In this document: positions 48,126 to 57,950 of the stretch, piece by piece
Layout: each line of letters opens with the position of its first letter
Position numbering within the stretch: the stretch's first letter is position 1
Position numbers and translations under genes: made by a program
Notes under the pieces: generated by a model
Database searches by the model: none
Told to the model about the DNA's origin: nothing
The model's input: only the letters and a program-made list of their open reading frames with translations
Virus record (IMG/VR): IMGVR_UViG_3300027708_001885
Span: 1-64,000 of that record
DNA: 64,000 nucleotides
Strand: one strand, 5' to 3'
Source of the DNA: a virus

Positions 48126-48246
48126 AACAGGTTCTCATTTTTGTGCTACCAATACACCAACACAGTTGACCAAACTGTGTCCAGGATTCGAACCTGGTCC
48201 GTCTTTTTTGCAGAAAGTTTAATAAGATTGCTGAAAAGAACCTAAA
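48126..48246 (-). ncRNA. YrlA/Y-RNA-like RNA with permuted tRNA domain (copy A)
   Basis: UAGGUUCU..UUCAGCAA 5-prime / AGAACCUG 3-prime closing stem; T arm, loop-closed acceptor stem, D arm in that order. Confidence 0.7.
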
Positions 48247-48257
48247 TGGTCAAATAA

Positions 48258-48378
48258 AACAGGCTACTTTTTTTGATGGCGATGAAGCCATTGCTCTACC
48301 ATTGAGCGAATTTGGGAAACCCCAAATGTTGGAATCGAACCAACGTGTCATAAATGACTTTGCTGAACGTAGCCTAAA
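48258..48378 (-). ncRNA. YrlA/Y-RNA-like RNA with permuted tRNA domain (copy B)
   Basis: Same terminal stem and UUCAGCAA; GTTGG-TTCGATT-CCAAC, closed acceptor, GCTC-AATGGTA-GAGC. Confidence 0.7.
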
Positions 48379-48380
48379 AC

Positions 48381-48456
48381 TGGTTGCAGAGCTTGGATTC
48401 GAACCAAGGATGGCAAAGGCTTATGAGACCTCGCTGGTGACCAGACCCTCTCTGCG
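48381..48456 (-). tRNA. tRNA-Met(CAU), initiator-like
   Basis: CAT anticodon, C1:A72 mismatch, CCA. Confidence 0.8.
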
Positions 48457-50041: not shown

Positions 50042-50329
50042 TGGTGCTCCGAGCCGGACTCGAACCGGCACACCTTGCGGCGAGAGATTTTCTTACCACT
50101 ATAGTTTTCACTACCCTTGCGGTTTGATGGTCTGGACTATACCTTCATCATAGTATTACTACTTTAGATGCCCGCCGTCTAGTCTCTACACGTTCCCTTT
50201 CGGGCTTCGCTCGGTATTAGCATTTTACAGCCTTCACCGAATTTGACGGGTTCTACTCCTAGCATTTCCACTAGGGCACTCAAATTTTACTCTCAAGTCT
50301 CTTGTGTCTACCTATTTCACCATCGGAGC
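50042..50329 (-). tRNA. tRNA-Leu(UAA), intron-containing
   Basis: Exons 50295-50329 and 50042-50091 join to give CT-T^AA-AA loop, long variable arm, CCA. Confidence 0.9.
50092..50294 (-). mobile_element. Group I self-splicing intron in tRNA-Leu(UAA), no ORF
   Basis: 5-prime exon ends in U, intron ends in G; AAATTCGGTGAA, AATACCGAGC, GTAGAGACTAGACGG, AAGGTATAGTCC core elements. Confidence 0.9.
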
Positions 50330-54890: not shown

Positions 54891-54964
54891 TGGTAGGTCA
54901 TGACGGTATTGAACCGCCGTATCTTGGATGTCGACCAAGCACTCTACCTTTGAGTTAATGACCT
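54891..54964 (-). tRNA. tRNA-Val(GAC)
   Basis: Cloverleaf; 5-prime end overlapped by the HNH ORF. Confidence 0.88.
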
Positions 54965-55630
54965 ATGTTTATTGTTGCTTCTTCCAAAATTCCAACCATG
55001 TGGTAACGGATCTGTTTCTAAATGAAGTTTGTCATCCACTCCGTCTGTTATAAACTTTCTATTTTTATATGATGCCGAACCTGCATTCAAAAAATGTTTG
55101 CTATTTTTTCTTCCATTTATTGATTTTATTTCAGCACTATGAACTTCGCAATAACTAGCAAATCTTGTCTTTACTGGCAACTCACAGCAGATACATTTTT
55201 TGATTTCAAAATTTATTTTTCTTCCCAAAATCCAACCATCTGGCAATTCTTTGCTAATTGATATTTTTTTAGATACTTTTAATTCCGAGTTATAAATCCA
55301 TTTTGTTCCAAACTGAGTATTTCCCGACCCTGTTTGTTTTTTGCTCTGAGCTTTAGAAAGTTTTCTTCTAAGCCATCCGTATAATTTATTTGATGGGCGA
55401 TTAGCAACCATCATTACAGCGGCATGTAATAACGCAGAATTGTCTGGATTTATTTTCACTAGTAACTGATGTGCCAGATAATGTTCTTCTGGTGTAAGAT
55501 ATACTAAGTTAATTTTATCATCCTTTCCACCTAGACATCGTGGTACAATGTGATGCCACTCACCGTATTCATTTAACGTTCTTACTGATGCTCGAATAAC
55601 AAGGTTATCGTATATTTTTTGATAGTTCAT
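54944..55630 (-). CDS. HNH homing endonuclease
   Basis: EWHHIVPRC.GG.D..NLV.LTPEEH..AH; GW..GR repeats; likely start MNYQKIY. Confidence 0.9.
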   Translation of the reverse strand: MNYQKIYDNLVIRASVRTLNEYGEWHHIVPRCLGGKDDKINLVYLTPEEHYLAHQLLVKINPDNSALLHAAVMMVANRPSNKLYGWLRRKLSKAQSKKQTGSGNTQFGTKWIYNSELKVSKKISISKELPDGWILGRKINFEIKKCICCELPVKTRFASYCEVHSAEIKSINGRKNSKHFLNAGSASYKNRKFITDGVDDKLHLETDPLPHGWNFGRSNNKHRSLTQR

Positions 55631-55652
55631 ATTGTATTTACCATCAAGTTTC

Positions 55653-55692
55653 ACCGTGTCGAGGTAGTGTTCTACCATTAAACTAAGGACCT
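55653..55692 (-). pseudogene. 5-prime half remnant of a second tRNA-Val(GAC)
   Basis: AGGTCCT-TA-GTTTAATGGTAGAAC-A-CTACC-TCGACAC-GGT, then breaks off. Confidence 0.8.
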
Positions 55693-55700
55693 GAATAGGT

Positions 55701-55851
55701 TTTCGAGAGACCAGCTATCTTTCTGAAGGACTCACTGGCTTGTCTCGTATGAGCGAGTTTAAACTACCCTGTATAATTCTACTGGTGTGTCATGCATCAG
55801 CCTAATGCACTAGAATACAAGGGACTCGAATCTCTACGTCTATCTCGAAAC
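55701..55851 (-). ncRNA. Unidentified structured RNA (about 150 nt)
   Basis: Terminal TTTCGAGA/TCTCGAAA stem, nested internal stems. Confidence 0.5.
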
Positions 55852-55972
55852 TGGTGCCGCTGCTGGGATTCGAACCCAGATAACCCCCTTGACATGGATT
55901 AAGAAAATTGCTGAACGTACTCTATACAGAGTCACCCTTTTATAAGGTGTCCTACCATTAGGCGACAGCGGC
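55852..55972 (-). ncRNA. tRNA-bodied RNA with the Y-RNA-like module in place of the anticodon loop
   Basis: 7-bp acceptor + ACCA, D and T arms; insert ACTCTG-TA-TAGAGT-ACG-TTCAGCAA. Confidence 0.72.
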
Positions 55973-56170: not shown

Positions 56171-57079
56171 ATGCCTAATTATACAACATTTACATGTTCT
56201 TGCATAGTCTGCAAACAACCAAAAACCTCAAAAGGTATTCATTCTCATTATCTCATTTCTCATACAGAAGAAGGACGAGCAAGAAATCGTAAAAATCGTC
56301 TTGCTGGTGGATTATTAGGTTCTGAAATTGCTAAACAAAATGCACAGCAAATTCAAAATCAATATTTAGAAAATCCTAACAAATGCAAACAGTGCGATGT
56401 CTCTCTTACATACGAGCAGCGTCATAATAAATTCTGTTCAACATCCTGTTCGGCAAGTTTTTACAACAAGGATCGAAAAGGTGTTGCTCTAGATACTGCT
56501 GTGAAACAAAAGATTTCAGATAGTGTTAAAAAGTTTAATCTAGAAAATCCTTACACCAAATCAAAACAGATGTTTAGCAGACTATCGTATTGTTGTATAT
56601 GCAACTCTGTCATACAAAACAAAATTGTTAAAACTTGTTCTTCTAAATGCAAGTCAGTGCTGTTATCAAACAACATGTCCGATAGAATCAAACAAAACAG
56701 AAGAAGTAATTATCGCAGAGATAAAAGATCTTATCTCGAAGAATCATTTGAAACTTGGTTGTTGGATAACAACATTTCTCTAAAATATGAAACTGAATAC
56801 ACTATTAAAAATCATATTACACAGAAATGGTATTTCGTGGATTTCTACTTTCCCGAAATAAATCTTATAGTTGAACTTGACGGGAAACAGCACGAAAAAC
56901 CTAAACACAAAGAAGCAGACAAACTTCGTGATGAATACATCACTACTAATCTAAACTTAAATGTTTTTAGAATTTCTTATGATGAATATCAAGCTGGTTC
57001 TAAAATAAACGAATTACTAAAATTATTGGTGAGGCAGGTGGGGTTCGAACCCACAAGGAGATTTCTCTCGCCAGATTAA
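56171..57079 (+). CDS. Vsr/DUF559-like PD-(D/E)XK endonuclease with zinc-finger repeats
   Basis: E..F, VDFY, VELDGKQH, D..RD; several CxxC and CS..C motifs. Confidence 0.85.
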   Translation: MPNYTTFTCSCIVCKQPKTSKGIHSHYLISHTEEGRARNRKNRLAGGLLGSEIAKQNAQQIQNQYLENPNKCKQCDVSLTYEQRHNKFCSTSCSASFYNKDRKGVALDTAVKQKISDSVKKFNLENPYTKSKQMFSRLSYCCICNSVIQNKIVKTCSSKCKSVLLSNNMSDRIKQNRRSNYRRDKRSYLEESFETWLLDNNISLKYETEYTIKNHITQKWYFVDFYFPEINLIVELDGKQHEKPKHKEADKLRDEYITTNLNLNVFRISYDEYQAGSKINELLKLLVRQVGFEPTRRFLSPD

Positions 57080-57570: not shown

Positions 57571-57632
57571 AACAGGATGCTTATTTTTCAATTAACAGTT
57601 GAATTGGATAAGTTTGCTGAACGCATCCTAAA
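57571..57632 (-). ncRNA. Minimal Y-RNA-like RNA (copy C)
   Basis: TAGGATGC-GTTCAGCAA..GCATCCTG. Confidence 0.62.
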
Positions 57633-57884: not shown

Positions 57885-57950
57885 AACAGGATCAACTTTT
57901 TAGTTTCTGGATAAAAGAAAGTTTGTTAGTTTTGCTGAACTGATCCTAAA
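57885..57950 (-). ncRNA. Minimal Y-RNA-like RNA (copy D)
   Basis: TAGGATCA-GTTCAGCAA..TGATCCTG. Confidence 0.62.

What the first reader, a model, noticed from the sequence alone, without database searches (positions are those of the whole stretch)
55852..55972. CCA-ended tRNA whose anticodon is replaced by the permuted Y-RNA module
Seen: a normal acceptor stem with ACCA, D and T arms. The anticodon loop holds AAAAGGGTG-ACTCTG-TA-TAGAGT-ACG-TTCAGCAA, which is the 3-prime then 5-prime ends of the Y-like family joined by a loop. It is therefore a circular permutation of copies A/B in the same genome. Inference: an evolutionary intermediate between tRNA and Y RNA, possibly chargeable and able to recruit Ro60.
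Basis: partly seen in the sequence, partly recalled or inferred. Interest (0 to 1): 0.75.

Follow-up and report, generated by a model that had tools for sequence, protein, structure and literature searches.

The report
tRNA carrying a Ro60-type handle arm
A giant lake phage encodes a complete, CCA-ended tRNA look-alike with an extra 47-base arm. That arm is the docking "handle" of the phage's Y-RNA-like small RNAs, so the RNA is probably a tRNA-shaped partner of a Ro60-like protein and not a working or broken tRNA.

Summary
On the minus strand at 55972..55852 lies a 121-nt RNA gene with a 7-bp acceptor stem, A73-CCA, a D arm and a T arm. It also holds a hairpin that reads A-run, stem, GUAU loop, stem, GUUCAGCAA. 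That is the 3' half plus the 5' half of the "handle" that closes four linear Y-like RNAs in the same tRNA island.

The anticodon is not replaced. The 47-nt module sits inside the 5' strand of the anticodon stem (between positions 28 and 29), and a 7-nt anticodon-like loop (AUGUCAA) remains.

The design is conserved. I found 43 copies in about 35 phage contigs, including five tandem copies in the cultured Vibrio phage KVP40/phi-pp2. All helices covary. Nine of ten phage records with such RNAs, and all six near-complete genomes, encode one DUF2828/DUF7788 protein. Its predicted fold matches Ro60. The window's own record is a 22 % fragment and holds no such gene.

It is therefore a stable class of tRNA-shaped Y-like RNA with its ends at the acceptor stem, not a transitional fossil. 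Whether the arm stays in the mature RNA, and whether the RNA is charged, is untested.

This scan has reported the same design before on other DNA. I found no published description.

The parts
55852..55972 (-). Whole element E: 121-nt tRNA-shaped RNA with a handle arm, CCA encoded
   Evidence: Rfam tRNA 36.8 bits. Model R1 112.8 bits, E 1.7e-23.
55966..55972 (-). Acceptor stem, 5' strand (nt 1-7). It pairs with 55856-55862.
   Evidence: All 7 pairs show compensatory changes; 98.9 % of cells paired in 40 distinct homologues.
55949..55963 (-). D arm (GCCU-AAUGGUA-GGAC), with G18 and G19 present. C11.A24 is a mismatch in this copy only.
   Evidence: Relatives have U11-A24.
55946..55947 (-). CC: positions 27-28 of a split anticodon stem. 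It pairs with GG at 55884-55885.
   Evidence: Columns 30-31 with 129-130: 81 % paired, 5 pair types.
55899..55945 (-). 47-nt insert that holds the closed handle
   Evidence: Removing it in silico gives ARAGORN tRNA-Asp(GUC), 74 nt.
55938..55941 (-). A-run (AAAA), the mark of the handle's 3' side
   Evidence: Linear family consensus from 132 copies.
55928..55935 (-). Handle stem strand GUGACUCU, the equivalent of the 3' strand NNNNCCU in linear copies
   Evidence: Five covarying pairs, 98.5 % paired.
55924..55927 (-). GUAU loop that closes the handle. Its first G corresponds to the invariant G that follows CCU in linear copies.
55917..55923 (-). Handle stem strand AGAGUAC, the equivalent of the 5' strand AGGNNNN
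55908..55916 (-). GUUCAGCAA, the conserved unpaired word of the handle
   Evidence: U, C, G, C, A are invariant in 27 aligned homologues..
55884..55898 (-). Anticodon-like hairpin: UCC (positions 29-31), loop AUGUCAA (32-38), GGGGG (39-43)
   Evidence: Columns 115-117 with 125-127: 78 % paired, with compensatory changes. U33, A37 and A38 are conserved.
55863..55879 (-). T arm: CUGGG-UUCGAAU-CCCAG
   Evidence: 100 % paired; 3 of 5 pairs covary.
55852..55862 (-). Acceptor 3' strand, A73, CCA
48261..48375 (-). Linear copy A: handle plus permuted tRNA-like body (T arm, closed acceptor, D arm)
   Evidence: Rfam YrlA 26.5 bits, below the gathering score of 69..
48129..48243 (-). Linear copy B: handle plus anticodon-like hairpin, T arm, closed acceptor, D arm
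57574..57629 (-). Linear copy C: handle plus a single anticodon-sized hairpin
57888..57947 (-). Linear copy D: handle plus a single hairpin

Best explanation
E is a stable non-coding RNA made from the phage's tRNA operon. It keeps its extra arm in the mature form.

Proposed course, with what is shown and what is inferred:
1. E is transcribed with the neighbouring tRNAs. It starts 7 nt after the CCA of tRNA-Met, and no promoter or terminator lies between (shown).
2. Its ends are cut like those of a tRNA, because it has a normal acceptor stem, D/T elbow and encoded CCA (inferred).
3. The 47-nt arm projects from the 5' strand of the anticodon stem. It presents the same handle (7-bp stem, unpaired GUUCAGCAA, opposing A-run, closing G) that forms the termini of the phage's linear Y-like RNAs (shown).
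4. This handle is the docking site of a phage Ro60-fold protein of the DUF2828/DUF7788 family (inferred from co-occurrence and adjacency).
5. The tRNA body, with its freely varying 'display' anticodon loop, is the effector or decoy part. It brings the Ro60-like ring to, or diverts, factors that handle tRNAs, plausibly in counter-defence (inferred).

In short, it is a Y RNA of the YrlA kind whose chain ends lie at the acceptor stem and not at the protein-binding stem.
For: 1. Structure is conserved. There are 43 homologues (40 distinct) with acceptor, D, handle and T helices 97-100 % paired, and 24 of 26 pairs show compensatory changes. No shuffle of 500 reaches the observed covariation, and slid controls give about 45 % pairing.

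2. The handle is the same as in the free-standing RNAs.
- 132 distinct architecture-complete linear copies from 120 phage loci share: UUUU-AGG-NNNN-(G)UUCAGCAA ... A-run-NNNN-CCU-GUU.
- E keeps the conserved U-A pair and the G after the stem.
- E changes G-C to A-U and A-U to G-C in a compensated way.
- Model R1 bridges the junction of copies A and B at E 2.5e-8.

3. The two forms occur together. Loci fetched only by the linear-handle pattern held 11 further tRNA-shaped copies.

4. A protein partner is plausible.
- DUF2828 is present in 9 of 10 phage records with E-type RNAs, and in all 6 that are 90 % or more complete or fully sequenced. It is absent from 14 of 14 control genomes.
- Only 710 of 50,697 cultured phage records hold a homologue.
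- The AlphaFold model (pLDDT 73.5) matches Ro60 structures over its full length: 9l5y at E 1.3e-8, then 2nvo, 1yvr and 9nen.
- In a Felixounavirus the gene is followed directly by four handle RNAs.

5. It is probably not a decoding tRNA.
- The triplet changes between near-identical relatives (GUC in E, GCC in L136 at 96.6 % identity). N73 also varies between A and G.
- The loop frame is invariant.
- The 'Tyr' clade lacks a long variable arm, and its sister copies read GUG.
- The island already has two ordinary tRNA-Asp genes.

6. Published lead: Ro60-like gp130 of the phage Bas63, which lies upstream of its tRNAs, counters the Ppl defence (PMC11482910).
Against: - No experiment shows the mature form.
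- The window's own 102-kb record has no DUF2828 or TROVE gene. It is only 22 % complete, so the partner is inferred from relatives.
- In-silico removal of the insert yields a standard tRNA call in 35 of 43 copies. That is what an intron would look like.
- The handle differs from the known Ro60 site (the GNCGAA/CGAA motif; PMC4201824, PMC12135203), and no binding has been measured.
- In E itself the anticodon-like stem is weak: U.G, C-G, C-G plus two C-G pairs.
Confidence: 0.6

Rival explanations
1. A tRNA gene with a new kind of small, protein-dependent intron. The handle arm is recognised, perhaps by the Ro60-like protein with a nuclease and a phage RNA ligase. It is cut out and the stem resealed, giving a 74-nt tRNA-Asp(GUC) that decodes.
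For: Deleting alignment columns 32-114 gives ARAGORN tRNA calls of 73-77 nt in 40 of 43 copies, 35 of them standard. The full-length sequence is called in 0 of 43. U33 and purine 37 are kept. Large phages often carry RNA ligases (PMC7824862).
Against: - No known bacterial or phage splicing route acts on a 41-54-nt insert in a stem strand. There is no group I signal here.
- The same module is the permanent terminus of free-standing RNAs that have nothing to splice.
- The triplet and N73 vary among near-identical copies. A38 stands where bacterial tRNA-Asp has C38. Short-armed 'Tyr' copies alternate with 'His'.
Confidence: 0.15
2. A working five-armed tRNA. The arm stays, the RNA is aminoacylated and used on the ribosome or by another aminoacyl-tRNA-using enzyme, and the handle lets the Ro60-like protein control or mark it.
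For: It has a complete acceptor stem, A73-CCA, the G18G19 and T-loop elbow, and an anticodon loop of canonical size and frame.
Against: The objections from identity elements and anticodon turnover given above apply here too. A 47-nt helix at the D/anticodon hinge would be expected to clash with synthetase or ribosome contacts; this is inference and was not tested.
Confidence: 0.1
3. A precursor that is cut in the GNNA loop of the handle. The result is a two-piece RNA held together by the acceptor and handle stems. It would have the same ends as the linear family, whose flanks CCU|GUU and UUU|AGG are conserved.
For: The G after CCU is invariant in linear copies (0.99) and 90 % or more conserved in closed copies. 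The flanks of linear copies look like processing signals.
Against: The conserved G with a final A or U can equally be a structural closing pair. Loop length varies from 3 to 29 nt. No RNA ends have been mapped.
Confidence: 0.08
4. A decayed tRNA pseudogene that picked up a chance insertion.
For: ARAGORN misses it, and one D-stem pair is mismatched.
Against: Conservation with compensatory changes across 40 distinct copies in many phage lineages.
Confidence: 0.02

Closest known systems
YrlA-type Y RNAs bound by Rsr/Ro60 in bacteria and mycobacteriophages (Rfam RF02553; Chen et al. 2014, PMC4201824)
   Same: A protein-binding stem with an unpaired conserved word, joined to a tRNA-like body (T arm, acceptor-like stem, D arm). 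It is encoded in genomes that carry a Ro60-fold protein. Linear copy A of this window gives a full-length sub-threshold YrlA hit (26.5 bits).
   Different: - The chain ends of E lie at an open acceptor stem with CCA, not at the protein-binding stem.
- The handle word is GUUCAGCAA, not GNCGAA.
- E also keeps an anticodon-like hairpin.
- The partner protein family is DUF2828/DUF7788, not Pfam TROVE.
- E gets no RF02553 hit at all.
Thermus phage phiLo Ro60 with Yrl1/Yrl2 (PMC12135203; PDB 9l5y, 9kop)
   Same: A phage-encoded Ro60-fold protein with phage-encoded partner RNAs. It is the best structural match of the DUF2828 model.
   Different: Yrl RNAs are linear stem-bulge-stem RNAs with a CGAA motif. 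They have no tRNA body with an open acceptor end.
Ordinary tRNA (RF00005), and tRNAs with introns
   Same: Acceptor stem, D arm, T arm, CCA and a 7-nt loop. E scores above Rfam's tRNA threshold (36.8 bits against 29).
   Different: A 47-nt structured insert lies in the 5' strand of the anticodon stem (28/29). That is neither the site nor the size of bacterial group I tRNA introns. The triplet is unstable among relatives.
Circularly permuted tRNA genes (red alga Cyanidioschyzon; cited from my own knowledge, not read here)
   Same: The same RNA body occurs in two connectivities that are related by circular permutation.
   Different: In the alga the permuted precursor is processed back to a normal tRNA. 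Here both connectivities are conserved side by side and carry a protein handle.
Dictyostelid Class I RNAs (PMC7919456; Rfam RF01414)
   Same: A short 5'/3' stem followed by a conserved unpaired 11-nt word that ends in CAGCAA in Rfam's consensus. Copy B gives a weak hit (14.9 bits).
   Different: These are eukaryotic RNAs bound by an RRM protein, with no tRNA body. The likeness may be chance and was not tested further.

Membership tests
tRNA (RF00005) | 7-bp acceptor stem, discriminator base, 3' CCA | tested here: met
   GCCGCUG/CAGCGGC, A73, CCA. All 7 pairs covary.
tRNA (RF00005) | D arm with G18G19 and T arm with the UUCGAAU loop | tested here: met
   The T-loop columns are invariant.
tRNA (RF00005) | Contiguous 5-bp anticodon stem with a 7-nt loop | tested here: not met
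   The stem's 5' strand is interrupted by 47 nt. ARAGORN makes no call on the full length. The loop itself is present.
tRNA (RF00005) | Anticodon and identity elements stable within an isoacceptor lineage | tested here: not met
   GUC, GCC, GUU, UCG and UUC occur on near-identical bodies. N73 is A or G.
tRNA (RF00005) | Aminoacylation and use in decoding | not testable with these tools
   Needs acid-gel or charging assays.
YrlA (RF02553) | Score at or above the Rfam gathering threshold (69 bits) | tested here: not met
   No RF02553 hit on E at E<=10. Copy A scores 26.5 bits.
YrlA (RF02553) | 5' and 3' ends form the Ro60-binding stem | tested here: not met
   In E that stem is closed by a GUAU loop, and the ends are at the acceptor stem.
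YrlA (RF02553) | GNCGAA(N)G motif in the binding region (PMC4201824) | tested here: not met
   The word here is GUUCAGCAA.
YrlA (RF02553) | Encoded near a Ro60 gene (within about 4 kb, same strand) | tested here: inconclusive
   No TROVE or DUF2828 gene in the 102-kb, 22 %-complete record. Nine of 10 related records have DUF2828. The gene is adjacent in a Felixounavirus.
Phage UUCAGCAA-handle RNAs (undescribed family; 132 linear copies) | 7-bp covarying stem with a conserved U-A pair, followed on the 5' strand by (G)UUCAGCAA | tested here: met
   AGAGUAC + GUUCAGCAA. Pairing with GU(G)ACUCU has compensated changes.
Phage UUCAGCAA-handle RNAs (undescribed family; 132 linear copies) | A-run before the 3' strand, and G directly after it | tested here: met
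   AAAAGG-GUGACUCU-G.
Phage UUCAGCAA-handle RNAs (undescribed family; 132 linear copies) | The handle stem holds the RNA's termini | tested here: not met
   The stem is closed by a loop in E and in 42 homologues. This is the defining difference of the variant.
Phage UUCAGCAA-handle RNAs (undescribed family; 132 linear copies) | Binding to the DUF2828 Ro60-like protein | not testable with these tools
   Only co-occurrence and fold are shown.
Group I tRNA intron (RF00028) | Catalytic core of about 200 nt or more, inserted in the anticodon loop | tested here: not met
   The insert is 47 nt and lies in the stem. No RF00028 hit here, while a true one is found at 50111-50298.

The most novel reading that the evidence does not exclude
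The handle-tagged tRNA is a real substrate of tRNA enzymes: it is charged, modified at G34, or cut by host anticodon nucleases. It would then act as bait that couples a Ro60-like ring, and whatever nuclease the ring recruits, to the host's tRNA-directed defence or translation machinery. That would make it a programmable display of anticodon loops, with GUN triplets over-represented, used in phage counter-defence. Alternatively, the arm is a new protein-guided tRNA intron.
Probability: 0.15. Interest if true: 0.9.

Novelty: new variant of a known kind. Interest (0 to 1): 0.66.

Why it matters
Y RNAs and Ro60 are conserved from bacteria to humans, yet what the tRNA-like part of bacterial Y RNAs does is unknown. 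Here the same protein handle is built into a molecule that still has every feature of a tRNA, including free CCA ends and an anticodon-like loop. The linear, acceptor-closed form sits beside it in the same genomes.

That gives a natural pair of topological isomers with which to ask two questions: does the Ro60-type particle act on or through the tRNA machinery, and how did Y RNAs arise from tRNAs?

The design also occurs five times in the cultured phage KVP40. There the copies are annotated as 'tRNA-OTHER', pseudo, or intron-bearing Phe/Asn/Val tRNAs. So the question can be tested at the bench, and current phage tRNA annotations and counts are wrong for these genes.

Tried and rejected
- Megablast of the region against cultured phages found nothing. 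A short distant blastn gave only chance hits.
- Rfam at permissive thresholds gave no family for the handle. The only hits were sub-threshold YrlA and a weak Dictyostelium Class I hit.
- A single-sequence MFE fold of E (z = -2.2) mis-pairs the A-run region and was not used.
- Two simple models for the region between handle and T arm were each only 67-79 % paired: a full 5-bp anticodon hairpin, and a 3-bp outer stem. The split-stem model fits both halves at about 80 %. The alignment mixes subfamilies, so this part is less certain.
- Sequencing runs:
  - The stretch is held by lake and freshwater metagenomes.
  - One lake metatranscriptome contig (151 nt, 55760-55910, 4 differences) runs unbroken from inside the insert through the 3' end of E and 92 nt beyond.
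  - No contig joins across the insert.
  - These are contigs from an RNA library that may contain DNA. They show neither expression nor the mature form.
- The KVP40 genome paper (PMC180978) is not held, so I could not check what it says about the long tRNAs. The phi-pp2 paper does not discuss them.
- The pseudogene reading is rejected on covariation.
- I did not run a protein-RNA complex prediction; the tool handles protein chains only.

Full report
**What is there.** The window is the first 64 kb of a 102-kb IMG/VR phage record that CheckV rates 22 % complete, so the phage is probably very large. The stretch is held by lake and freshwater metagenomes. On the minus strand from about 45.6 to 60.2 kb lies a tRNA island with 34 ARAGORN tRNAs and a group I intron.

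The finding lies in this island, 7 nt downstream of the CCA of a tRNA-Met. No promoter-like or terminator-like site lies between them. Read on the minus strand (55972..55852), the 121 nt give these features:
- a 7-bp acceptor stem, A73 and CCA;
- a D arm with G18 and G19;
- a T arm with the UUCGAAU loop.

Rfam's tRNA model scores it 36.8 bits (threshold 29), but only by skipping 60 nt in the anticodon arm. ARAGORN does not call it.

**The module.** Inside the skipped part is UAUAAAAGG-GUGACUCU-GUAU-AGAGUAC-GUUCAGCAA. Four other elements on the same strand have the frame UUU-AGG-NNNN-(G/U)UUCAGCAA ... A-run-NNNN-CCU-GUU, and their NNNN positions differ but always pair:

| Copy | Coordinates | Cargo |
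|---|---|---|
| A | 48375..48261 | Permuted tRNA-like body (T arm, loop-closed acceptor stem, D arm) |
| B | 48243..48129 | Permuted tRNA-like body, plus an anticodon-like hairpin |
| C | 57629..57574 | One anticodon-sized hairpin |
| D | 57947..57888 | One anticodon-sized hairpin |

Copy A gives a full-length but sub-threshold match to Rfam YrlA (26.5 bits against 69).

A scan of IMG/VR with an 18-nt pattern (14 specified bases) for the 5' half of the handle returned 120 loci. They held 132 distinct copies with the complete architecture. The consensus shows features that were not part of the search: an A-run before the 3' strand, a G right after CCU (0.99), then UU, and UUUU before AGG. E keeps the A-run, the conserved U-A pair and the G. 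Its two departures from the consensus stem are compensated on the other strand (G-C to A-U, A-U to G-C).

**The tRNA-shaped form is a conserved class.** Two pattern scans that ask for the order D loop, UUCAGCAA, T loop, or UUCAGCAA, T loop, CCA, found many homologues. An alignment of 27 gives an RNAalifold consensus of acceptor, D, handle and T helices. Of its 21 pairs, 18 show compensatory changes.

Results with the covariance model R1 built from that alignment:
- E scores 112.8 bits.
- The next hit in the window (45.7 bits, E 2.5e-8) spans the junction of linear copies A and B. It reads D arm of A, A-run, 3' strand, 15-nt spacer, 5' strand of B, UUCAGCAA, hairpin, T arm of B. This is direct evidence that the two forms are circular permutations of one another.
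- In 100 loci fetched only through the linear pattern, the model found 11 more full-length tRNA-shaped copies.
- Altogether 43 copies (40 distinct) were aligned.
- On that alignment the four main helices are 97-100 % paired. No shuffle of 500 reaches the observed covariation, and slid controls fall to about 45 %.

**A cultured carrier.** One homologue lies in Vibrio phage KVP40. In the near-identical phi-pp2 record, five tandem genes of 113-123 nt are annotated tRNA-OTHER (one as pseudo), tRNA-Phe, tRNA-Asn and tRNA-Val. All five carry the closed handle. The phi-pp2 paper does not comment on them, and the KVP40 paper was not available.

**Where the module sits.** In E and most homologues, a small hairpin with a 7-nt loop lies between the module and the variable loop.
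- A full 5-bp hairpin is only 67 % paired.
- A 3-bp outer stem is only 79 % paired.
- Both compete for the same 3' strand.
- A split stem fits both at about 80 % with several pair types. In it, positions 27-28 come from the two nucleotides after A26, positions 29-31 come from after the insert, and the 3' strand 39-43 is continuous.

In E this gives C27-G43, C28-G42, then the 47-nt insert, then U29.G41, C30-G40, C31-G39, and the loop A-U-GUC-A-A.

Deleting the same alignment columns (32-114) in all 43 copies makes ARAGORN call a standard tRNA in 35. It gives an irregular call in 5 and none in 3. It calls none of the full-length sequences. E becomes a 74-nt tRNA-Asp(GUC). So the element is a whole tRNA plus a fifth arm, not a tRNA without an anticodon. 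The alignment mixes subfamilies, and in E the inner stem is weak, so this part is the least certain.

**Is it a decoding tRNA or an intron-bearing one?** The loop frame (A/C32, U33, A37, A38) is nearly invariant. Within E's own clade the three middle positions are more variable than three quarters of all columns (0.68-0.87 bits, against a mean of 0.30).
- A relative 96.6 % identical to E elsewhere reads GCC, not GUC.
- Others read GUU, UCG or UUC.
- N73 is A or G.
- Another clade reads GUA or GUG on one body with a short variable loop, which is not the build of a bacterial tRNA-Tyr.
- The island already has two ordinary tRNA-Asp genes.

These points argue against a stable decoding identity. 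They do not exclude removal of the arm. No known bacterial or phage route would excise a 41-54-nt insert from a stem strand, and the same module is the permanent terminus of the linear RNAs.

Laying public runs gave only contigs. One 151-nt contig from a lake metatranscriptome runs unbroken from inside the insert to 92 nt past the CCA, and none joins across the insert. That cannot tell precursor from DNA carry-over.

**The likely partner.**
- The window's own record has neither DUF2828 nor TROVE, but it is a fragment.
- Of ten phage records that carry tRNA-shaped handle RNAs, nine encode exactly one DUF2828 protein of about 470-490 aa. That includes all five records that CheckV rates 90 % complete or more, plus the fully sequenced phi-pp2. 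The one record without it is 31 % complete. None of 14 control genomes has the family.
- Among 50,697 cultured phage records, 710 hold a homologue. Some in mycobacteriophages are annotated 'Ro-like RNA binding protein'.
- The protein combines DUF2828 with a vWA-like DUF7788 domain.
- Its AlphaFold model (pLDDT 73.5, pTM 0.69) finds only Ro60 structures at the top of the PDB search, aligned over the full length: Thermus phage phiLo Ro60 (E 1.3e-8, TM 0.53-0.55), Deinococcus Rsr, Xenopus Ro60 and human Ro60.
- In the Felixounavirus tootiki, the gene is followed at once, inside the tRNA array, by four handle RNAs. One of them has a permuted tRNA body.

Binding itself has not been shown.

**Literature.**
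- Bacterial and mycobacteriophage YrlA RNAs mimic tRNA and carry a GNCGAA motif (PMC4201824).
- Thermus phage Ro60 binds two linear Y-like RNAs with a CGAA motif and recruits host PNPase (PMC12135203).
- A preprint reports that a Ro60-like protein upstream of the tRNAs of phage Bas63 counters the Ppl defence. It guesses that some of the 'tRNAs' may be Y RNAs (PMC11482910).
- Searches for DUF2828, for the handle word, and for Ro60 with phage tRNA-like RNAs found no description of the UUCAGCAA handle or of a CCA-ended tRNA carrying it.

**Earlier notes of this scan.** Several earlier notes on other genomes describe the same design and reach the same reading. The scan has therefore seen this before on other DNA. 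I re-derived the main points independently here.

**Verdict.** The permutation and the Ro60-type link hold, 'evolutionary intermediate' does not, and charging is open.

The best reading (about 0.6) is a stable, tRNA-processed Y-like RNA whose handle arm docks the phage's Ro60-like protein and whose tRNA body is the effector or decoy. The main rival (about 0.15) is a new protein-dependent tRNA intron. It is a new connectivity variant of a known kind of RNP, and it can be tested in KVP40.

Noticed in passing
L220:7119-9667 (Vibrio phage phi-pp2, identical stretch in KVP40, L182): Five tandem 113-123-nt 'tRNAs' are annotated tRNA-OTHER (one as pseudo), Phe, Asn and Val. All are handle-carrying tRNA look-alikes. 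A DUF2828 gene lies about 6 kb beyond the tRNA cluster on the same strand.
   Followed up: partly
alignment A4 columns 118-124 (E: window 55889-55895): The display-loop triplets are rich in GUN (Asp, Asn, Tyr, His: the queuosine and colicin E5 family). They make up 18 of 35 standard calls, in several separate clades. This may hint at which tRNA-directed enzyme is being mimicked.
   Followed up: no
L145, L149, L150, L152 and about 20 further loci: A different RNA group: two tandem UUUCAGCAAC words about 45 nt upstream of a tmRNA-like 3' end (GGGGGUUCAAAUCCCCCCGGCUCCACCA). It shares the word but not the handle stem.
   Followed up: no
window 50111-50298 (-): A group I intron (Rfam 61.1 bits) lies between tRNA-Asn and tRNA-Leu. 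It may sit in a split tRNA gene that the tRNA finders miss.
   Followed up: no
window 48381-48456 (-): ARAGORN calls this 'tRNA-Met(CAU)', directly upstream of linear copy A. Rfam's tRNA model does not call it (only 17.5 bits as tRNA-Sec). Its D region is odd.
   Followed up: no
window 55962 (nt 11 of E): E has a C11.A24 mismatch in the D stem, where all relatives have U11-A24. A relative's contig in a lake run shows the U at this place.
   Followed up: partly
window 56171-57079 (+) and 54944-55678 (-): E is flanked by two free-standing ORFs. One has a DUF559 (Vsr-type) endonuclease domain and lies on the opposite strand. The other has no Pfam match. They are probably mobile endonucleases inside the tRNA island.
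   Followed up: partly
L229:5971-8492 (Escherichia phage tootiki, Felixounavirus): The DUF2828 gene is followed by four handle RNAs whose handle reads AGACC-NN-(A/U)U(A/U)CAGCAA ... GGUCU-G. This is the same layout as the Bas63 locus, whose Ro60-like gp130 is reported to counter the Ppl defence.
   Followed up: partly
132 linear copies in L007-L126: The flanks of linear handle RNAs are conserved: UUUU before AGG; G (0.99) then UU after CCU. They look like processing signals or an extra closing pair.
   Followed up: no
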